A stretch of DNA of 63,738 nucleotides, filler included, from Folioceros fuciformis (GCA_049999805.1; 26 parts of 26 records of this genome joined end to end with filler, not necessarily neighbours in it), one strand, 5' to 3'; counted from the first letter of the whole stretch, positions 48,276 to 59,343 are shown. Notes: generated by a model not told the origin, from the letters alone. Numbers and translations are program-made.

Positions 48276-49598
48276 TTACTTATTATATAGAATTAAAACT
48301 ATATATACTAGCTTAGCTATTATAAGTATTCTATAAGCTTAATAGTACTTATTAAGATAGCTTTATTATTTATAATAGATCTTAGTATTATTATATTATA
48401 TAATTATAGTAATTAAATAGAGTTAACTATAATCTTATTTTTATAGTACTAAGTATATAGAAAGAAACTTACTCTATATTCTTAAGTACTAGACTTATAA
48501 CTATTACGTAAAAATAAGTATAGAAATTAGTAGAAGATAGTTAATTAAGTTATAACTAAGCTATAACTATCTATTATATATAAAGAGTATTAGAGCTATA
48601 TTAATCTAGCTTCTTATAGAGCTTTCTAAGCTAGTATAGAGATTATAAAGAAAGCTCTTTTATAATATACTTTCTAGATAAGCTTACTTTATAAGCTAAT
48701 CTATTATAAAGCTATATTTTTAGTAGTATTTTAATTAGTTTATTATTATTCGGCCTATTTAAGTTAGATTAGTAGTACTTAGAGTACCTTACTTAAAGTA
48801 CTTTAACTTAAATTAAAATAAGCTCTATAGATCTTACTTCTTCTATAATATAATACTATACCTACTCTTATATATATTACTAGTAGCTAATTAGCTATAC
48901 TCTATACTTCTTCTATCTACTCTTTATAAGCTTTAACTAATAGTAATTTATAGATAAAAGCTTAAAAATTTATTTATATTTACTATACTACTACTACTAC
49001 TACTACTTCTACTACTTCTACTACTATACCTACGCCTATACCTACTATTACTATAACTACTATATACTATACTACTACTAGAGCTTTAACTTCTTCTAGA
49101 AAATCTACGTATCTCTTAGTATATATAGTATATTAACCTTAGATAAGTAAAAAACCTCTATTAATAAAGAATATTTCTATAAAACTATTAGTTATTTCTA
49201 CTAATAGACTTTATATATTACTATTAGAAAGGCTTAAGCTTTTTACTATATTCTTTAGTAAGTATAACTTAGAGCTTTTACTTCTAAAGTCTTACTTACT
49301 TAAAACTATAATTTCTTCTTATTAAAGTTAACTAAAAGCTTTTTATACTAAGCTCTACTTAGACTATATAAATAGTATACTCTTAAAGTACTCTTTTAGA
49401 AAGTACTATAATTCTAGTACTAGAAAAGTATAGTATTAGTACTACTCTTTTAAGTACTTTTATATAAGAGTATAAGTAGCTTATTAATTATTATTTTCTA
49501 TATTATTACTAATTATATATTAGACTTAGAATTACTTATAGACTAGTATAAAAGCTTATTAGACTTCTATATAATAGAAAGAAATTTCTACTATATAT
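48276..49598. other. Extremely AT-rich, RIP-mutated repeat relic (probable ascomycete DNA)
   Basis: No CA or TG dinucleotide found by eye in 1323 bp; remaining C is nearly always in CT and G in AG; TA in excess; no ORFs. Confidence 0.85.
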
Positions 49599-49698: not shown

Positions 49699-51614
49699 AG
49701 CTGAAATTTAGTCTGCCTCTTTTCAAGTTCTCTTAAAGTTCCAGCTAATGTTTTAGCAACATATGCTCTCATTGAATCCTCCTCCAACTTTACGCCATTG
49801 CACTCTTTAGCACACAATTTTTGCATTTAACGCACAACACACAATTTATCTTCTTCATCCTGTCCTTCCAAAGAAGTTGTCATGTTTAATGCACATGCAT
49901 CTTACCCATCCACCTTGCAACTGCAACTTGAATGAGATTGTTACCAAGCTCATTCCCGCCCTTGTTGCCAACTTGGACGACAATAAAATTCTTCTGTCCA
50001 TAAATCCACACCTTCTCTTGGCAAAAACAAAGCTTCCATTCCTAGAATGACATCAAAATTTCCAAATTTGATAATCAAGCACTTCATTTTTATGGTGATC
50101 TCCTCCTCAGTTCCGGGACTAAAGCACAATTGCAACTTTCCCCTTGTTTCTCCCATCATTGCTTCCAAACCCCCATTAGCCATTCTGATTCCCACTTGGT
50201 CTCCAGTATATCCCCTCTCCTCAACCCCATCACGTACGTCGTACCACAATGTATCAAAGTGGGCTGGGCTCTTGAATCAATCAAAACTTTTGCTAGTGTA
50301 AAGCCATCTATCAAGTCATGTTGGCTATTGTCTAGAAATGCAATTCTTAGCTTAACTTTCGCTCTTTGTTCAAAACTTCTCTTATCATTGTCCACACAGA
50401 CTGCTATAGTTTTTCTTAGCCCAACCATATCCTTAAGTTGAAAAGCAACTACTTCTTGTAAAAGTTCTTGAATTTTTACTTCAACTATTTCTCCTTTAAC
50501 ACACAACTCCAACAAATTTCTAACACAAAACATCAGATCCCGCTACATAGCCTCTACCTTTTACGTCCCTATTGATCCAGCATGCTTGTAGCCTTCTCCT
50601 TTACCCTCGCACTAAAGTTGTTCAGATCCACGCCCATAACTTCAAATGACTAAGGGTACTTTCATCCTGAGGCACATGTCCTTCCATGATCCTTGCCTTT
50701 TTCTTCAAATCTTGTATTGACTCTTTTCTGCATGTCCCCACATTCACTGCCTTCTCACCTTCCACTTCACACACAAAAGCATTCAACTAGAATTCTTTGT
50801 AAGCCTCCTCCTCCTCAATCTTCCCTTTCTTCTTTTCCACAATTTTAACCTCTTTGATCTTAACTCTGTTATTATAAATATTGGCAGCCTTCAATATATC
50901 TATTTCAACTTGTAGATATGATATGTGCAGTTCTAACATCTTGTGAGACTTTTTCATGTAACTATCCATCGACTCTTCACTTGTTCCCACCAACAAACTT
51001 CCTCTAGCTCTTTGCACTTGTCTAACATTTTTAATGTTATATGTCCTTTCTGACCAAATTTAGTAGGTCTAAGAGATAGATGTTTTTGCTAACAAACCCC
51101 TTCTTAATGCCCTTTCTTTCCACAATGGTTACAACTTACATCTTTTAACCATGCACTCTATCATTACATGTATACTGCTTCCAAATCTCAAACATTTGAT
51201 CTCTTTGCTTGATTCCACTTTCAAGATAGGCTTCATATATCTATTATCCATTCGTCTGGCATTTGCATGCTATTGCCAACCAGGTCTTCATCTTGGTGTT
51301 ACCGCAGAAAATGAACCTTCTTTTATCTACCCCAACTTTTCTACCCATAGCCTTCAACAATGCTCTTGCCTGCTCATGCCTTTCTATACTTGGAAAAACT
51401 TGTTTAAGCGTATATGTTTTTTTTCCATACAATGATATCAGCCCCCTAAAAACATCCTCCCTAATGTCCTCATCTAAATTACAAATGTATTTAAAGTACA
51501 CTTTCATCTCATTATGTATCCCCGTATCCAACACAATCTGACTAGTTCAATTGTAAAACGTAAGAGCCATCTCATCATGTTTTCTTTTCAGGTTTGCTAA
51601 CTCTTCTATCTTTA
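49699..51614 (-). mobile_element. Family G gag end, aspartic protease and pre-methyltransferase linker, degenerate
   Basis: 51614-50870 aligns with the gag at 14992-15729; KVLIDSRAQPTLI...IRMANGG...FDVILGME protease; 49945-49699 aligns with 59343-59089. Confidence 0.85.
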
Positions 51615-51714
51615 NNNNNNNNNNNNNNNNNNNNNNNNNNNNNNNNNNNNNNNNNNNNTTAATTAATTAANNNNNNNNNNNNNNNNNNNNNNNNNNNNNN
51701 NNNNNNNNNNNNNN

Positions 51715-52071
51715 TAATTCTGACCTAAACCTAACTCTGACCTAACCCTAACTTTGACCCAAACCTAGTTCTGACCTGATAGGGGTTGTGTCCCATGGAC
51801 ACCACTGGGTGCCCTTACCAAAATTGACCAACCTCTCAAGACTACCAAAATGGTCAATGCCTCTCAACCCTCTCCCTTCTCTCTCAAATCATTCCATCCC
51901 TTCTCTCAGATCATTCCAACAACCCTTCAAAGACACGTCTCGCCTCACCATTAATCTAGCTACTAATCTAACCTAATCTTTTAACCATTTCACCACAGGG
52001 TTCACTTAGAGATTCCCAAAAAGAGAAATCCTACCATTTTCCAAGGACCTATTCAGCATGTGGAGTCCACA
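51715..52071 (-). repeat. Terminus F copy, with ~17-bp CTGACCTAAACCTAACT repeats at 51715-51780
   Basis: Ends ...TTCAGCATGTGGAGTCCACA; homologous to the sequence from 14218. Confidence 0.8.
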
Positions 52072-53839
52072 GCTATGCATACCTGAGGATTGCGCGGAGC
52101 TGAAGCTTTCCTTATTGCATGATGCGCATGATGCACCAACAGCATGACACATGGGGATAGATAAAAGATATCAGCGCTTGAAGGAGCATGTATGGTGGCC
52201 AAGCATGCAGAAATAGTGCATCAAATATGTGCAGGAATGCTTACCTTGTCAGCAATCCAAAGCAATGAGAAGAGCACTAGCAGGCTTGCTCATGACATTA
52301 AAGGTGCCAGCAAAGAAGTGGGCCAGCATGGCTTGTGATTTTGTGACCTGCTTGCTGAGAACGCAGAAAGGGCATGATGCTTTGTGGGTGTGTGAAGATA
52401 GAGCTACCAAGCTCGCTCACTTTATTCCTATCAAGGGCACTATCGAAGCCAAACAACTCGTGCCTTTGTTCTTGAAGGAGATAGTTTGCCTACATGGTGT
52501 GCCACAAGAAATTGTGTCAAATAGAGATGCAAAGTTCCTCTCTCAATTTTGGAAGGACTTTTGTGCAAGCTTGGGCATGAAACAATGTTTGAGCTCAGCT
52601 TACCATCCTCTGTCTGATGGCGCCAGCGAGAGGCAAAACCAAACAATGGAGGATCTGCTGTGTCCTTACTGCCATGATCGTCAGAGCAATTGGGAAGAAG
52701 CACTGCCACTTGCTGAGTTTGCTTACAACTCAGCCCGTCACTCTGCAACTGGGTATTCGCCATTCAAGTTGACATATGGAAAGAATATTCCACCACCATG
52801 TATGTGGCCAGTGTTGTAGGGATAGCAAAGGTCCATCACTGAGCTGAATGAGAGCATGCGCCAAGATTTCCAAGAAGCTGCGCAAAGAATGGCAACAATC
52901 AATGATTAGAGAGCAAACTTGCCAATAAGAAACAAAGAGATGAGCAGCACGAAGTTGGCAACTAAGTGTGGTTAAGAGTGCGGCCGAACAGATATTCCAA
53001 GCTGCAAGAGGGCACAGCCAAGCTGTCCTACAGGCACGTAGGCCCATTTTGTGTCACAAGGAAAATCTCACCTGTAGCGTATCACAGCTTGAGTGCCTCA
53101 TAGCTGGTGCATTTGCAAGAGTTTCCACGTTTCCTTGCTAAAGAAGTTCGTGGTGCTGTCTCAACCCAACAATTTTTAGACAAACTGGCCCCAGGACAAA
53201 GAAGTGAGACTGTCAAGCTACCCGAGTTCCAGCAATTGGGCGAGTCACACACAACCTCCCAAGAGCTTGTAGTTGCAGAACAGAAGAAGGGGGAGGATGC
53301 GAGAGCTAGACACAAGCCAGCAAAACGCAGGAGTTTCAAAACTGGCGATAAGCTAATCTGCCAGCCAGTTGCTATTTTTGGATAGTAGAGAGAGGTAGTT
53401 GCATGGTCGAAGCATCAAGGAGTACCTCGTGAGTTGGTAGAGCGACCATGAAGAGCAATCCAGCTGGGAGACTCAGGCTTTCATCGATATGTTCTGACAT
53501 TTGAACAAGTTTGAAGAACGTGATGAAGAGCAATGTCTTCATAGTCCCGGTTATAGGGAAGGGGATGATGCTACGGCCAGCGATTATAGCAAGACAGCGA
53601 GCTGAAGAGCAGCTCAACGAGAAGGACTGGACACCTGATCAGCATCCAAATGGTGCTGTTGGCATACAGGAAATGGTCGTAGCAGAGTACGCGTAGGGCA
53701 TGCCTAGGACATAGCCGCTAGAGCTAAACAAAGGAGACAAGGTTAGAATTAGAGGTTAGACCGAGCAGGATCAAGCTGACACCAATCAGTTGCTAACCAA
53801 TCCAGTAGTTAAGTTAGCTCGGGTTAAAACACGGTCAGA
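52072..53839 (+). mobile_element. Chromovirus (Ty3/gypsy) 3' part: integrase, chromodomain, PPT, start of 3' LTR
   Basis: HDAHD...H...CLPCQQSK; IVSNRDAKF; SAYHPLSDGASER; VGPF module; KEYLVSW*SDHEEQSSWE chromodomain near 53420-53470; AGGGAAGGGGA PPT near 53555-53565. Confidence 0.88.
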
Positions 53840-54028
53840 TGTGGAGGCAAAACCCCGGGCACTGATTGCCAACGGGTGCCACCTTTAGTGGCCACACTTA
53901 TCCCACTGTCGTTGAGACATTGGGTTTCGTTCCCACGAAGGAGCGATGGGGTTCCTTGCTGCTGTGGATGGAGGGTCGGACTTGATCGACTCGATGATGG
54001 ATTCGAGGGCTCCCCTCTAGCTCCGATC
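53840..54028 (+). repeat. Terminus C copy
   Basis: Starts TGTGGAGGCAAAACCCCGGG. Confidence 0.9.
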
Positions 54029-54128
54029 NNNNNNNNNNNNNNNNNNNNNNNNNNNNNNNNNNNNNNNNNNNNTTAATTAATTAANNNNNNNNNNNNNNNN
54101 NNNNNNNNNNNNNNNNNNNNNNNNNNNN

Positions 54129-55153
54129 CTTGGGAGTTGGTTCAGTTGCCTAAGGGCAAGAAGGCGTTGCCATGCAAATGGGTGTATAAGATGAAGGACA
54201 TACCCCATTATGGCAAACCCAAGTACAAGGCATGATTGGTTGCTAAGGATTTTAAGCAACAGCAAGGTATTGACTTTGATGAGATTTTCTCATCAGTTGT
54301 CAAAATGGCCACCTTGCGATGTGTTCTTGGTCTGGTTGCAAGGAACGACATGGAACTTGTCCAGATGGATGTGAAGTCGGCATTTCTGCATAGTGATCTC
54401 CAGGAAGAGGTATACATGTAGCAACCAGAGGGTTTCATTGAGAAGGGCAAAGAGAATCTGGTGTGCAGGTTAAAGAAGAGCCTTTATGGTTTGAAGCAGG
54501 CACCCAGGGAGTGGTATTTCAAGTTCCACTCATTTATGCTTTCTCAAGGCTACAAGCGTAGCGATGAGGATCATTGCCTCTATACGAAGCAAGCTAAGGA
54601 TGGAAGCTTGCTCATTCTGGTCCTCTATGTGCATGATAAGCTAATTGCTGGGACTAACATTGATGAGATTTCAACGTTGAAGTCAAAATTGAATGGTCGC
54701 TTTGACATGACAGAGTTGGGAGAGACAAGCCATATTCTTGGCATGCGTATTTGTCGAGATAGACAGAAGCATTTGCTTCACTTGTCTCAGACTAAATTCA
54801 TTAACAAGGTGCTTCAACGTTTCAATATGAAGAAGGGGAAGGTATTGAGTACTCCGTTGTCTCCATATGTGAAACTTTTGAGCAAGGATTGCCCAATTTC
54901 TACGGAGGATAAACCTGAAATGGAGAAGGTTCCATACTCATGACCTGTAGGGAGTTTGATGTATGCAATGATTGTTACGCGTCTTGACATTGCGTTTGCA
55001 ATGGGAGTGGTTAGCAGGTTAATGTCAAACCCTGGCAGGAAGCATTGGGAGGCAGTGAAAGGAGTTATGAGGTACTTGAATGGTACAAAAGCTTTGTGCA
55101 TATGTTTTGGTAGTGAAGATGCATCTGTCGTGGGATATATGGATGCTGATTAT
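54129..55153 (+). mobile_element. Copia family B RT fragment
   Basis: QMDVKSAFLH, SLYGLKQAPREW and LVLYVHD motifs; several stops. Confidence 0.93.
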
Positions 55154-55199
55154 TGTGGAGGCAAAACCCCGGGCATTGATTGCCGACGGGTTCCACCTT
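55154..55199 (+). repeat. Terminus C copy (short)
   Basis: Starts TGTGGAGGCAAAACCCCGGG. Confidence 0.85.
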
Positions 55200-55299
55200 N
55201 NNNNNNNNNNNNNNNNNNNNNNNNNNNNNNNNNNNNNNNNNNNTTAATTAATTAANNNNNNNNNNNNNNNNNNNNNNNNNNNNNNNNNNNNNNNNNNNN

Positions 55300-56305
55300 A
55301 TATCCCTTGGCCACAAGCCTTGCCTTGTACCTGCTGACACTACCATCTGCGTTGTGTTTGACCTTGTACACCCATTTGCAACCTATTGGTTTCACACCTT
55401 CAGGTAGTTGTACTAGGTCCCATGTTGCATTCTGATCTAATGCATTCATTTCTTCATCCATGGCATGTTCCCACTTTGTGTCTCCAATAGCTTTTTCAAA
55501 GCTCCTCGGTTCCACATCTTGCACAACCTTTGCCATATAAGCACGGTGCCTAGCTACATAGCTATGATAGGTCAACCGCTGTATTGGAACCTTGTGCCTT
55601 CCAGATCTCCGTGGGATTGAACCACTTCCAGGGGTTGATTGAACCTCTTTCGCACCGGGTGTTTCGATTTTGGGTACACCGAATTCCTCATCCAAGCTCT
55701 GCTTAGAGTCGCTTGAATCATCTGCACTTGCACTCAGGTCTGGTGTCTTTGAATCCTGGACTTTTTCCTTCCCTTTGCGAGACACAGCTGTGGAGCTCGT
55801 AGGGCTCACACTACCTGGCAACCTGCCACTCCATGGATTCTGAACATTTGTCGAGTTTGATGACGCTTGTGGTCCACTCAACGCTTGTGATTGTTGACTT
55901 GCATTGCTTGTTACCTCAGTTTCATGCACATCAGCTACACCACTTGCTTGTACTTCAAAGTACCAGCTAGCCATTTCATCAAAGACTACGTCTCTGCTTA
56001 CTCTCATAGCTCGTGTACTGGGATTGTAGCATCTATATCCTTTCTGTGTAACAGAATACCCAATGAAGACACATTGTTCTGCTTTTGGATCAAGCTTAGT
56101 CCGTAATTCATCCAGAATATGGACATAAGCAATGTAACCAAATACCTTTAAGTGTGACAAGTCAGGTTTCTTCCCTGTGAACTTCTCCTTCGGTGTTATA
56201 TTGTGCACCACTACTATGGGAGTTCTATTCATGATGTACACTGCTGTGTTTACAGCTTTAGCCCAATAGTAGTGAGGCATCTTCTTCTCTGTCATCAATG
56301 CTCTC
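55300..56305 (-). mobile_element. Ty1/copia integrase C-terminus to RT start, open frame
   Basis: [36 protein letters not shown]...[11 protein letters not shown]. Confidence 0.95.
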
Positions 56306-56405
56306 NNNNNNNNNNNNNNNNNNNNNNNNNNNNNNNNNNNNNNNNNNNNTTAATTAATTAANNNNNNNNNNNNNNNNNNNNNNNNNNNNNNNNNNNNNNN
56401 NNNNN

Positions 56406-56711
56406 GTGTGTGAGGAAAGACGCAGATCTGAGAGGTTAGAGTCGTTGTAGTGACTGGAGTGAGTTTGTGGGCACCGAGAGAGGTGCAGCTGACCGCCGGA
56501 CAGCGAGGCCTGTCCTACGCCTGATCGGAGCTGGAGGGGAGCCCTCGAATCCGTCATCGAGTCGATCAAGTCCGACCCTCCATCCACAGCAGCAAGGAAC
56601 CCCATCGCTCCTTCGTGGGAACGAAACCCAATGTCTCAACGACAGTGGGATAAGTGTGGCCACTAAAGGTGGAACCCATCGGCAATCAGTGCCCGGGGTT
56701 TTGCCTCCACA
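56406..56711 (-). repeat. Terminus C copy
   Basis: Ends ...TTTTGCCTCCACA at 56711. Confidence 0.9.
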
Positions 56712-57892
56712 CAACCCTATTGACATGGGATCAGAGCTTGAGAACCAGATTGCCAAGAGTAGCCCAGAGCTAGAGAGCCCGGCGGCTACACCTGAGGGCG
56801 ATGCAAGATCGGCGTAGGAGGTGCTGCAAGAGGCAGCAAGAGTGCACACTAGGAGCTGGAGCAGCTACGAGAAGTTGGAGAAGCTTGGAGGGAGATCGGC
56901 AGCAAGCGTCCCGGCAACTAACTCTCATATCGGTGTGTGCAGGAAGTGAGGAGAAGGGTGACAAGGCCCTGTCAGCTTACTGGACGGGCTGTTGATCCCC
57001 GGAGCTCTATGGAAGGGCTGACAGGTGGAGGCAACAGCTGCAGTAGCCTCAGTAGCTGCAAGAAAGTGTGCTAACCTAGCTTGGCAGCAGGGAAGGAATT
57101 GACAGGAAATCTCACGGGAGCTTTGTGGGCAGATCGTCAAGAGTCTGTAAGGACATGGAGCATGAGACAATCTGGTTCATGTAAGGCAGCATGATTCCGC
57201 ACCAAATTGCTCTTAGGAAGAAGAGACTTAAGGTCTTGTGAGTAAAACTCCAGTCAGAAGCAGTCTCTTTCTTGCAGACATTTATCAGGTGTGAGTACTC
57301 AAGAAGGATTGAGTGTCAACCTTGAGTGGTGGCAAGAATGGCCAGGGATAGTATTAACCAGATCGTGCAAGAGAAGGTGGACAAAATCAACTTCCATGCT
57401 TGGAAGTTTCGTTTTACAAACTTTCTTGTGGGAAAGGGTTATTGGGACTACATTGAGGGGGAGCATGAAAAACCCCCTGTAGTACTTGAGCGGAATGCAA
57501 CAGCGCAGCAGATTAAGGTGCTGAAGGATTGGAGTCAAGGATCTCGGAAGGTCATGTATTGGCTGTCATGACAATCAACATTCATGACACCATGATTGGG
57601 CACAAACAGGATGTAGAGTCGCCCAAAGAAGCATGGGATGAGTTGGTCAAACTCTATGAGACCAACACGAAGGCAAGGAAACTACAGTTGAAGAATGACT
57701 TCAACACAATTATGAAAAAGAACTTATCAATCAATGAGTATGCGTTAAAGATCAAAGAGATGGTGGAATCCCTTGCGTCCATTGGTGTCAGTGTGGAAGA
57801 TGACGACAAGGTCGAAGTTTGCTTACGTGGGTTAACACCTGCCTATAAGCAGTTCAAGACTTCCATACAGACTCGGGAAAACATACCCAATT
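56712..57892 (+). mobile_element. Ty1/copia 5' end (LTR stub, degenerate PBS TGGGATCAGAGC, leader, gag), related to family A
   Basis: MARDSINQIVQEKVDKINFHAWKFRFTNFLVGKGYWD parallels the gag at 440-1501; frameshift near 57565. Confidence 0.88.
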
Positions 57893-57992
57893 NNNNNNNN
57901 NNNNNNNNNNNNNNNNNNNNNNNNNNNNNNNNNNNNTTAATTAATTAANNNNNNNNNNNNNNNNNNNNNNNNNNNNNNNNNNNNNNNNNNNN

Positions 57993-59343
57993 CCTTGTGC
58001 TTAAAATAACTTTCCACTTTCTCTTCCACTCCTGATAAAATTTTATAGACATCATAAGCCATGTGACTGTATTCAAATCCATATCTTGTCCGAGTTTTTT
58101 ATTCCTTTGCTCAAATGTTATACCCTCCACTTGAGTAGCATTTGTATCAAAACCCATCGCCCTCTCTCTCTCCATGGGAGATGGCACATCCCACACCTTC
58201 CTCTTCGTATCAAATATCATCCCAGGTCCTTCCCCTTTAAATGCATTGGTGCCCTCAAAACTTACAAATGTTGGCAACGCCCTCCTGAGTTCCCCCTTTT
58301 TATTTATACAATAAAAGGGCTGTCTATCATCTGAAGTCACCTGCCTACTCACTCGCCCCTCATCTAATATCTGATCAACTATTAAATCATCATCCCTTCG
58401 CCACTGCCTCAGAAGCATCTGCAACAAATGCCTAGGCATCATGTTATTCCAAAAACAGCCATGCATGTGAGCCCTAGATCCAAACTGCGCTGCATCCAAC
58501 TTTATAAGTTCACCCAAATAATACTTAATCTCCTCAAAATCTTGCCTCAACACTACTCTTCTATCCATTTGGGAATCCACATTCTCAATCAAAAAACCAC
58601 ATTCTTTCTTCTAATGGTTTTGCACCAAATTCAAAATCCTAATCAGCTCATAAAATAACACCGACCTATAATCCAACAAGCCTTTTCCCTTGCCTGCCAT
58701 TGAATGCCCTTGACATTCCCAGCCAGCTATTATCAGATCAACTTCTTCCTCCACTTGAAATTGTACCAATCCAATAAGCCTAACATCTTGCGGCCAAACA
58801 GAAAACGCTTGCTTCACAGCTTCAACCTTTAATTGCTCATGATACTTTTTGAATAATTTAAACACCCTTGCCTTCGCAATTGCCTGACAAACTTCATATG
58901 GATCACAATAAATGTAATGTCTGACCACATACCTAGCAACCAACACAGCCTCCAGACCAAATGCAATCCCAGCAAACAACTCAACCATAACCAATCCATA
59001 TTCAGACAAATTCAATGTCACAAGTTTATTACACACAGGTTCAAGTTTAAAAACTGCTTCCTTTGTACAAAGTTGAATTTTATCATCTAGTTGAAACTCA
59101 GTCTGTCGTTTTTCAAGCTCTCTAAAAATTTCAGCTAATGCTCTACCAACATTTTCTCTCATTGTGATCTCCTCCACTCTGTTATGACTATATTCCTTTA
59201 AACATAACTTATCCATATGACGCTCCACCCACAACTTATCATCTTCATCTTCTTCCTCCTGCTCATCCCAAGAAGTCGTCATGTTTACTACACACACATC
59301 TTGCATGTCCTCCTGTAATTGCAACTTAAGTGGAATTGTTGCT
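57993..59343 (-). pseudogene. DNMT3-like C5 cytosine DNA methyltransferase domain in the family G polyprotein; one in-frame TAG (58611-58613)
   Basis: One intronless frame with ordered motifs I VELFAGIA, II YCD, III QDVRLI, IV DLIIAGWECQGHSMAG, V GLLDYRSVLF, VI FLIENV, VIII LDAAQFGSRAH...FWNN, IX PMERERAMGF and X QRNKKLGQDMD. Confidence 0.9.

What the first reader, a model, noticed from the sequence alone, without database searches (positions are those of the whole stretch)
49699..51614. Overlap tiling gives the order gag(2xCCHC) - protease - linker - methyltransferase
Seen: the minus-strand 3' end of this contig translates (across one frameshift) as VTISFKLQLQ...DACALNMTTSLEGQDEEDKLCVVR*MQKLCAKE...EEDSMRAYVAKTLAGTLRELEKRQTKFQ. 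This is homologous to ATIPLKLQLQEDMQDVCVVNMTTSWDEQ...DDKLWVERHMDKLCLKE...EEITMRENVGRALAEIFRELEKRQTEFQ, which precedes MTase motif I (49945-49699 versus 59343-59089). Its other end matches the gag at 14992-15729, which matches 24877-25565. Inference: the MTase sits in pol right after the protease, where RT normally follows. The visibly diverged copies suggest an old, amplified family that kept the domain.
Basis: partly seen in the sequence, partly recalled or inferred. Interest (0 to 1): 0.82.

Follow-up and report, generated by a model that had tools for sequence, protein, structure and literature searches.

The report
Decayed Gypsy retrotransposon carrying DNA methyltransferase
Several short contigs are worn-out pieces of a jumping-gene family that carries its own DNA-methylating enzyme just after its protease, a layout also seen in proteins of the green algae Klebsormidium and Closterium.

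Summary
The window is 26 small contigs joined by N/TTAATTAATTAA spacers. On the minus strand, contig 57993-59343 (c24) encodes an 84-residue linker followed by a Dnmt3-like C5 cytosine methyltransferase. Contig 49699-51614 (c19) is a badly decayed gag (2 zinc knuckles) - aspartic protease - linker copy. Its last 245 nt match the first 253 nt of c24 (72% nt; 54% aa over 70 residues, E 3e-15). Its gag matches the gag of contig 14992-16636 (c5; 75% aa).

The inferred order gag-protease-DNMT is also right. Database relatives have the intact order gag-PR-DNMT-RT-RNaseH-integrase. They include a Klebsormidium nitens protein (CCHC-protease-DNMT) and several Closterium proteins. The c24 DNMT falls in their clade, and c19's protease and c5's gag match profiles built only from these relatives.

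This is therefore a new member of a known kind: the DNMT-carrying Gypsy elements described by de Mendoza et al. 2018.

The copies here are dead. c24 has an in-frame TAG and has lost both arginines of motif VIII. c19 has many stops and frameshifts, and its protease active site reads D-S-R. "Kept the domain" is not shown in this window. RT, integrase and LTRs lie outside these contigs.

The parts
50880..51612 (-). c19: decayed gag, homologous to the c5 gag
   Evidence: tblastn of c5 gag gives 76/102 identical, E 3e-60. The HSPs lie in three frames with 1, 5 and 2 stops. blastn gives 70.5% over 638 nt.
51153..51194 (-). c19: first zinc knuckle, degenerate (second Cys replaced: C-x2-F-x4-H-x4-C)
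   Evidence: Regex on the translation; aligned to the intact c5 knuckle.
51092..51133 (-). c19: second zinc knuckle, interrupted by an in-frame stop
49962..50341 (-). c19: retropepsin-like aspartic protease in two frames, with active-site triad reading D-S-R (50264-50284 holds LIDSRAQ)
   Evidence: Profile of 12 PR-DNMT-type relatives. Piece 49953-50276 scores 53.1 bits, E 4.6e-15 (profile positions 52-131 of 148). Piece 50159-50542 gives E 0.048 (positions 4-46). The next best of 2506 pieces has E 5.8. Pfam finds nothing.
49699..49945 (-). c19: linker after the protease; the contig ends about 30 codons before the point where the DNMT domain starts in c24
   Evidence: 72% nt identity to the c24 5' end, score 208 against shuffles 28 +/- 5.6. 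54% aa over 70 residues, E 3e-15. One frameshift and one stop.
59089..59343 (-). c24: linker (residues 1-84). Its first residues, ATIPLKLQLQ, resemble the strand that closes the protease in relatives.
   Evidence: The resemblance to the protease tail is by eye on the alignment. The profile does not score it.
58023..59015 (-). c24: Dnmt3-like C5 cytosine methyltransferase domain. Motif I 58956-58982, motif IV (ECQ) 58701-58724, motif VI (ENV) 58578-58595, motif IX 58149-58172. The motif names are recalled; the positions come.
   Evidence: PF00145 at 32 bits, cut-off 22. 1223 relatives at E<=1e-3. A profile of 19 sequences hits DNMT3A best, E 4.8e-22. 46 of 51 strongly conserved columns are kept.
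58611..58613 (-). c24: in-frame TAG between motifs IV and VI
58449..58481 (-). c24: motif VIII region. Both arginines are replaced (M293, G295), where 99% and 97% of 120 relatives have R.
14992..15783 (-). c5: open 264-codon gag segment with two intact CCHC knuckles (15250-15291, 15187-15228), running to the contig end
   Evidence: A gag profile of 7 PR-DNMT-type relatives scores 35.9 bits, E 8.1e-10.
15937..16579 (-). c5: region upstream of the gag ORF, in another frame. It may be the gag N-terminus.
   Evidence: 92.6% identity over 646 nt to c10. ORF 15831-16454. No significant profile hit.
24877..25521 (-). c10: a second copy of the c5 upstream region
   Evidence: blastn; ORF 24879-25394.

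Best explanation
c5, c10, c19 and c24 are fragments of dead copies of one Ty3/Gypsy-type LTR retrotransposon family. Its single gag-pol reading frame runs gag (two CCHC knuckles) - aspartic protease - lineage-specific linker - Dnmt3-like C5 cytosine methyltransferase. By analogy with intact relatives it then continues into RT - RNase H - DDE integrase.

It belongs to the same lineage as the DNMT-carrying Gypsy elements of the streptophyte algae Klebsormidium nitens and Closterium.

How an active element most likely works is inferred, not shown here. The polyprotein is packed into gag particles and the protease cuts it. The methyltransferase is freed, or stays joined to RT, and methylates the newly made cDNA or the insertion site. 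This is what de Mendoza et al. 2018 proposed for pol-embedded DNMTs.

The copies in this window do nothing now. They have decayed by point mutations, mostly transitions, in a genome that depletes CpG.
For: Overlap: (see the observation check).

DNMT identity:
- PF00145 is above its cut-off.
- A profile search of solved structures ranks DNMT3A (4.8e-22), then DNMT3C/3B, above plant DRM (9e-15), M.HhaI (7e-11) and Dnmt2.

Architecture of relatives:
- P0008 has CCHC 530-547, Asp_protease_2 796-888, DNA_methylase 978-1226, RVT_1 1421-1575, RNase H 1638-1766 and integrase 1895-2061.
- K. nitens GAQ93235.1 (P0045) has CCHC 297-313, protease 597-692 and DNMT from 833.
- Closterium P0376, P0377 and P0383 have gag-PR-DNMT-RT.

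Phylogeny:
- FastTree on 121 rows gives a 96* clade of 20 rows: all 13 PR-DNMT-type, 6 of unknown type and c24, with 0 of 78 RH-DNMT-INT-type.
- IQ-TREE quick on 55 rows puts the 36 RH-DNMT-INT rows on one side of a branch, SH-aLRT 92.

Module-specific profiles:
- c19 protease, E 4.6e-15. No other Gypsy contig of the window scores.
- c5 gag, E 8.1e-10.

Decay:
- TAG and the two lost arginines in c24.
- Stops and frameshifts in c19.
- CpG o/e is 0.32-0.33 with TpG 1.44-1.67 in c5, c19 and c24, the lowest CpG values apart from c18 (0.28), which is a compositional oddity.

Multicopy:
- 291, 250 and 466 small contigs at 90% identity or more cover c24 in three runs of one sample, with transitions dominating.
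Against: - No single contig carries protease and DNMT together. The order rests on an overlap between copies that are only 72% identical, and c19 stops before the DNMT.
- RT, RNase H, integrase and LTRs of this family are not in the window. c24 ends about 10 codons after the DNMT.
- c24 has a long branch (1.16-1.24) and an odd composition. Its exact place inside the clade is weakly supported (58).
- One relative, P0004 (1775 aa), ends after the DNMT without RT. So an RT in the same ORF is not universal.
- The mechanism is untested. In the yeast assay of de Mendoza et al. 2018 the K. nitens DNMT gave no detectable methylation, which the authors call inconclusive.
Confidence: 0.85

Rival explanations
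1. The c19 lineage never had a methyltransferase. The linker is a protease-proximal segment shared by DNMT-less and DNMT-bearing elements, or passed between them by recombination. In c19's parent it ran straight into RT.
For: c19 ends about 30 codons before the DNMT domain. The c19-c24 match is only 72% nt. No listed database protein matches the linker, so its usual neighbour cannot be checked elsewhere: all 150 listed hits start at query residue 92 or later.
Against: c19's protease matches a profile built only from PR-DNMT-type elements at E 4.6e-15. Pfam's general protease models and the other Gypsy contigs do not connect to it. The homology runs to the very last base of c19. The only Gypsy contig here with an RT of similar type and no hit to the DNMT (c4) does not share the gag.
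Confidence: 0.08
2. c24 is a fragment of a host or domesticated Dnmt3 gene or pseudogene, not part of a mobile element.
For: The domain is Dnmt3-like. No retroelement domain lies on c24 itself.
Against: - 450 codons run without introns, with a single stop.
- The N-terminal linker is homologous to the sequence after a retroelement protease.
- c24 falls in the clade of polyprotein-embedded DNMTs.
- Hundreds of diverged small contigs cover it in DNA runs.
- CpG decay resembles that of the other TE contigs.
Confidence: 0.04
3. The overlap is an artefact of chimeric or collapsed short-read contigs of unrelated repeats.
For: All pieces are unplaced contigs of 1.3-2.2 kb, and many contigs end in shared repeats.
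Against: Gag, protease and DNMT each match the same external family, in the order seen in intact external polyproteins. Chimeras would not reproduce this.
Confidence: 0.03

Closest known systems
KnitGypsy-Dnmt3 of Klebsormidium nitens (de Mendoza et al. 2018, Nat Commun 9:1341, PMC5890265; I read sections 6, 9, 10, 11 and term passages)
   Same: A Dnmt3-type DNMT lies inside the polyprotein of a Gypsy-type LTR element. The K. nitens protein GAQ93235.1 (P0045) has CCHC-protease-DNMT, and c24 lies in the same DNMT clade.
   Different: Identity to c24 is only about 34%, the linker is unrelated, and the host differs, since no near-identical protein is on record. The paper's text does not state the domain order; Fig. 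4c and the supplements were not available to me. That P0045 is one of the published KnitGypsy-Dnmt3 copies is my inference from organism and architecture. The DIRS-like repeat layout reported there could not be examined here.
Closterium spp. (NIES-53/54/65/68) unnamed proteins with gag-PR-DNMT-RT
   Same: Same module order and same DNMT clade.
   Different: 33-37% identity to c24. I found no paper describing them.
Gypsy elements with RT-RNaseH-DNMT-integrase-PHD (named hits from Haematococcus lacustris, Monoraphidium neglectum, Chromochloris zofingiensis)
   Same: A related Dnmt3-like domain inside a Gypsy pol.
   Different: The DNMT sits between RNase H and integrase and a C-terminal PHD finger is present. 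Their DNMTs form the other side of the tree.
SymbioDIRS-Dnmt3 and SymbioLINE-Dnmt of Symbiodinium (same paper)
   Same: A retrotransposon-borne C5 DNMT. The DIRS type is Dnmt3-like and lies in pol.
   Different: These are DIRS elements (tyrosine recombinase) or LINE elements. Relatives of the present family have a DDE integrase.
Human/mouse DNMT3A/3B/3C catalytic domain (solved structures)
   Same: These are the best structural-database matches of the family profile, E 4.8e-22 to 1e-18, with motifs in the unrearranged order.
   Different: c24 carries no PWWP or ADD domain and is embedded in a retroelement. c24 itself lacks the motif VIII arginines.

Membership tests
DNMT-carrying Ty3/Gypsy LTR retrotransposons (KnitGypsy-Dnmt3 type) | C5 DNMT domain of Dnmt3 type | tested here: met
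   PF00145 at 32 bits against a cut-off of 22. The profile hits DNMT3A at 4.8e-22, ahead of DRM, M.HhaI and Dnmt2.
DNMT-carrying Ty3/Gypsy LTR retrotransposons (KnitGypsy-Dnmt3 type) | DNMT lies in the same reading frame as retroelement gag/pol modules | tested here: inconclusive
   Shown only by overlap of two diverged contigs. No contig holds both protease and DNMT. The order is seen directly in relatives.
DNMT-carrying Ty3/Gypsy LTR retrotransposons (KnitGypsy-Dnmt3 type) | DNMT groups with the retrotransposon DNMTs of K. nitens rather than elsewhere | tested here: met
   A 96* clade holds P0045 (K. nitens), the Closterium proteins and c24. The split from the other architecture has SH-aLRT 92. 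No host Dnmt3 outgroup was included.
DNMT-carrying Ty3/Gypsy LTR retrotransposons (KnitGypsy-Dnmt3 type) | Gypsy-type RT, RNase H and DDE integrase in the element | not testable with these tools
   c24 ends about 10 codons after the DNMT and no genome is held. The RT-bearing contigs of the window (c4, c13, c15, c20) do not match the gag or the DNMT of this family.
DNMT-carrying Ty3/Gypsy LTR retrotransposons (KnitGypsy-Dnmt3 type) | Terminal repeats (LTRs, or the split A/B repeats reported for K. nitens) | not testable with these tools
   The contigs are 1.3-2.2 kb and hold no element ends.
DNMT-carrying Ty3/Gypsy LTR retrotransposons (KnitGypsy-Dnmt3 type) | Conserved catalytic residues (functional DNMT) | tested here: not met
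   This copy has an in-frame TAG and M293/G295 in place of the two motif VIII arginines. It differs at 5 of 51 conserved columns. This bears on activity of the copy, not on ancestry.
Retropepsin-like aspartic protease | Homology to retroelement proteases, with a D-T/S-G active site | tested here: inconclusive
   Homology holds (E 4.6e-15 to a profile of relatives), but Pfam models give no hit. The active site reads D-S-R and the domain is frameshifted.
DIRS-type DNMT retrotransposons (SymbioDIRS-Dnmt3) | Tyrosine recombinase instead of DDE integrase | tested here: not met
   Intact relatives of the c24 clade carry rve/Integrase_H2C2. The window itself shows neither.

The most novel reading that the evidence does not exclude
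The gag-PR-DNMT-RT-RH-INT elements form an old lineage of streptophyte algae (Klebsormidium, Closterium and this unnamed host). It is separate from a much larger and apparently undescribed chlorophyte lineage in which a related DNMT sits between RNase H and integrase and a PHD finger follows. If so, the methyltransferase either moved within pol or was captured twice by Gypsy elements. This window would add a further host in which the family amplified and then died.
Probability: 0.4. Interest if true: 0.5.

Novelty: new member of a known kind. Interest (0 to 1): 0.3.

Why it matters
Retrotransposons that carry a de novo cytosine methyltransferase are a rare case of a parasite owning part of the host's silencing machinery. 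Only a few lineages have been described. This window shows the Klebsormidium/Closterium-type family in another genome, as an amplified and now decayed family. The database survey made on the way shows that such elements are far more widespread in green algae than the 2018 report covered: 1223 relatives at E<=1e-3, in two fixed architectures. The window itself adds no functional insight, because its copies are broken and incomplete.

Tried and rejected
- Pfam on the two protease pieces and the linker, even at E<=10, found nothing.
- The window's own genome is not held.
- Earlier findings of this scan, searched by place, sequence and words, returned nothing.
- ESM Atlas with P0008 was rejected for length. 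With P0004 residues 1060-1620 it gave only scores of 0.82, to DNMT clusters (Streptophyta, viruses, diatoms). These are leads only.
- Sequencing runs: no RNA holder is listed.
- Host identification by a Copia integrase ORF: the best hits are 57% and 50% identity to unnamed Logan proteins, then under 40% to land plants. The host is therefore not identified.
- Read laying on 49699-59343 was not run, because short pieces lie between N runs. c24 alone was laid instead. Depth from contigs was not used to compare linker and DNMT copy numbers, as the tool warns against it. The shown tables have no row at the TAG or at the motif VIII codons, so I cannot say whether other copies share those defects.
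- Selection test on the 40 variant places shown (74 more were not shown): 10 synonymous and 30 non-synonymous, with 9.6 synonymous expected without selection, P 0.5. This fits neutral decay after insertion and says nothing about selection on the active lineage.
- The gag profile gave no significant hit on the c5 upstream ORF 15831-16454. Its reading as the gag N-terminus rests on a resemblance seen by eye.
- Literature searches found only de Mendoza et al. 2018 and papers citing it. The Entomophthora genome paper (PMC11105155, passages read) concerns RID-like genes and is not relevant.

Full report
**What the window is.** The 63,738 bases hold 50 runs of 44 N around TTAATTAATTAA spacers. This makes 26 separate small contigs with G+C from 0.21 to 0.65. 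Most are transposon fragments that share repeats. One carries the 3' part of the eukaryotic LSU rRNA. No genome is held for the window. The finding concerns four contigs, all read on the minus strand: c5 14992-16636, c10 24877-27110, c19 49699-51614 and c24 57993-59343.

**The observation.**
- c24 translates in one frame for 450 codons with a single in-frame TAG at 58611-58613.
  - From about residue 110 it is a C5 cytosine methyltransferase: PF00145 at 32 bits, cut-off 22.
  - Motifs I, IV (as ECQ), VI (ENV) and IX are in the usual order (the motif names are recalled).
- c19 is a wreck. Its gag part aligns to the c5 gag with 76 of 102 identical residues (E 3e-60), but through three frames and with 1, 5 and 2 stops in the three HSPs.
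- The last 245 nt of c19 align to the first 253 nt of c24 at 183 of 255 columns. The score is 208, against 28 +/- 5.6 for 200 shuffles.
- In protein, 38 of 70 residues are identical, E 3e-15.
- So the linker overlap is real and far beyond chance.
- c5 has two intact CCHC knuckles. In c19 both are damaged.
- One detail is off.

**Is there a protease?** Pfam finds none in c19, even at E<=10. I built a 148-position profile from the protease regions of 12 database relatives that have protease followed by DNMT. I searched all 2506 stop-to-stop pieces of the window with it.
- c19 piece 49953-50276 scores 53.1 bits, E 4.6e-15, on profile positions 52-131.
- The neighbouring piece 50159-50542, in another frame, matches positions 4-46 at E 0.048. 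It covers the active site, which reads D-S-R.
- Nothing else in the window scores better than E 5.8.
- The two pieces are colinear with the profile. So this is a frameshifted, inactivated protease of that specific type.
- A gag profile from 7 such relatives hits the c5 gag at E 8.1e-10.

**Relatives and the domain order.**
- phmmer of c24, with X at the stop, against 1.84 billion representatives gave 1223 hits at E<=1e-3 and 159 at E<=1e-30. The best identity is 40-41%.
- All 150 listed hits match only from query residue 92 onward. The linker is therefore private to this lineage.
- I mapped domains on the hits with probes from P0008 and P0003 and checked a sample with Pfam. Two architectures appear.
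  - The common one is RT-RNaseH-DNMT-integrase-PHD.
  - The rarer one is gag(CCHC)-protease-DNMT-RT-RNaseH-integrase. It is intact in P0008 (2188 aa), P0175, P0368 and P0369.
- Among 120 hits with at least 280 residues of DNMT, 78 show the first order, 13 the second, and 29 are too short to tell.
- Named members of the second type:
  - Klebsormidium nitens GAQ93235.1 (P0045: CCHC 297-313, protease 597-692, DNMT from 833);
  - proteins of Closterium sp. NIES-53, -54, -65 and -68.
- Named members of the first type come from the chlorophytes Haematococcus, Monoraphidium and Chromochloris.

**Where c24 belongs.**
- In a FastTree of 121 DNMT domains, a clade with support 96 holds all 13 protease-DNMT-type rows, 6 undetermined rows and c24. 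It holds none of the 78 rows of the other type.
- I then ran an IQ-TREE quick search on 55 rows: 18 rows of that clade other than c24, 36 rows of the other type that I picked across the first tree, and c24. The 36 rows fall on one side of a branch with SH-aLRT 92.
- c24 has a long branch and an odd composition. Its exact neighbour is not resolved (support 58).
- A profile of c24 plus 18 short relatives hits DNMT3A best among solved structures (4.8e-22). DNMT3C/3B follow, then plant DRM, M.HhaI and Dnmt2. This agrees with the published Dnmt3 assignment.

**State of the copies.**
- Of 51 columns conserved in at least 85% of 120 relatives, c24 keeps 46.
- The five differences include both arginines of motif VIII (M293 and G295, where 99% and 97% have R). 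With the TAG, this copy is very likely inactive.
- c5, c19 and c24 have CpG o/e of 0.32-0.33 with TpG o/e of 1.44-1.67. These are the lowest CpG values apart from c18 (0.28), which is a compositional oddity. This is the mark of deamination of methylated CpG.
- In three DNA runs of one sample, c24 is covered by 291, 250 and 466 small contigs at 90% identity or more. Transitions dominate. That is what a multicopy, diverged family looks like.
- At two of the places where c24 departs from the family (residues 137 and 168), most laid contigs carry the family's usual residue.
- Among the 40 variant places shown, 10 are synonymous, with 9.6 expected by chance. This fits neutral decay of dead copies.

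**What it is and how it works.** The pieces are dead copies of a Gypsy-type element whose polyprotein carries a Dnmt3-like enzyme directly after the protease. The order is shown in relatives and inferred here from the overlap. How an active element uses the enzyme is inference. De Mendoza et al. 2018 (sections 10 and 11 read) propose that pol-embedded DNMTs methylate the new cDNA, perhaps to pass as self or to protect cytosines. They showed de novo CG methylation in yeast for the Symbiodinium DIRS enzymes. The result for the K. nitens enzyme was inconclusive.

**Comparison with what is known.**
- The kind was published in 2018 for K. nitens, as a Gypsy element with Dnmt3 in pol.
- The text I could read does not give the domain order. 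The figure and the supplements were not available.
- The K. nitens protein on record has the same CCHC-protease-DNMT order and lies in the same clade as c24.
- A 2025 survey mentions retrotransposon-embedded DNMT3s only by reference to that paper.
- I found no paper on either of the following:
  - the contrast between the two architectures;
  - the abundance of the RNaseH-DNMT-integrase-PHD type in chlorophytes.

**What is left open.** Open points are the RT class of this particular family, its terminal repeats, whether any intact copy survives, and whether c19's parent really had the DNMT.

Noticed in passing
48276-49598 (contig c18): This 1323-bp contig has G+C 0.21 and contains not a single CA or TG dinucleotide. 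Every other contig has an excess of both. This is what complete RIP-type (CpA to TpA) mutation in fungi looks like, so it may be fungal contamination or a very unusual repeat.
   Followed up: partly
whole window: The window is not one locus. It is 26 contigs of 1.0-6.1 kb joined by N44-TTAATTAATTAA-N44 spacers, so adjacency between contigs means nothing.
   Followed up: yes
26739-27110 and the ends of contigs c2, c6, c12, c16, c20, c21, c23, c26: A repeat of about 50-590 bp is shared at 88-99% identity by nine contigs, often exactly at contig ends. It is probably the LTR of an abundant element at which the assembly broke.
   Followed up: no
23540-24748 (contig c9): The 3' third of a eukaryotic LSU rRNA gene lies here in two pieces (Rfam RF02543, 980 and 166 bits).
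   Followed up: no
11226-11744 (contig c4, minus strand): A Gypsy RT here is 37-40% identical to the RTs of the protease-DNMT-type relatives, but tblastn finds no match to their DNMT anywhere on c4. A gag-like ORF at 12205-12711 lies only about 460 nt upstream, which I judge too little room for a protease plus a DNMT. It is an ordinary Gypsy element, and the c5 gag does not match it.
   Followed up: partly
database relatives (P0003, P0347, P0354, P0009 and others): A large group of Gypsy polyproteins has the order RT-RNaseH-DNMT-integrase-PHD. It makes up 78 of 120 classifiable top hits, with named members in Haematococcus, Monoraphidium and Chromochloris. I found no paper describing it.
   Followed up: partly
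database relative P0339: A 1974-aa Gypsy polyprotein (Pfam list RT, RNase H, integrase, PHD; 47% identical to the P0003 DNMT region over 98% of it) is labelled in NCBI as coming from a Minisyncoccia bacterium MAG. It is most likely eukaryotic DNA binned by mistake.
   Followed up: no
all TE contigs: CpG o/e is 0.32-0.62 on the transposon contigs, with an excess of TpG and CpA. This suggests that the host methylates CpG in repeats.
   Followed up: no
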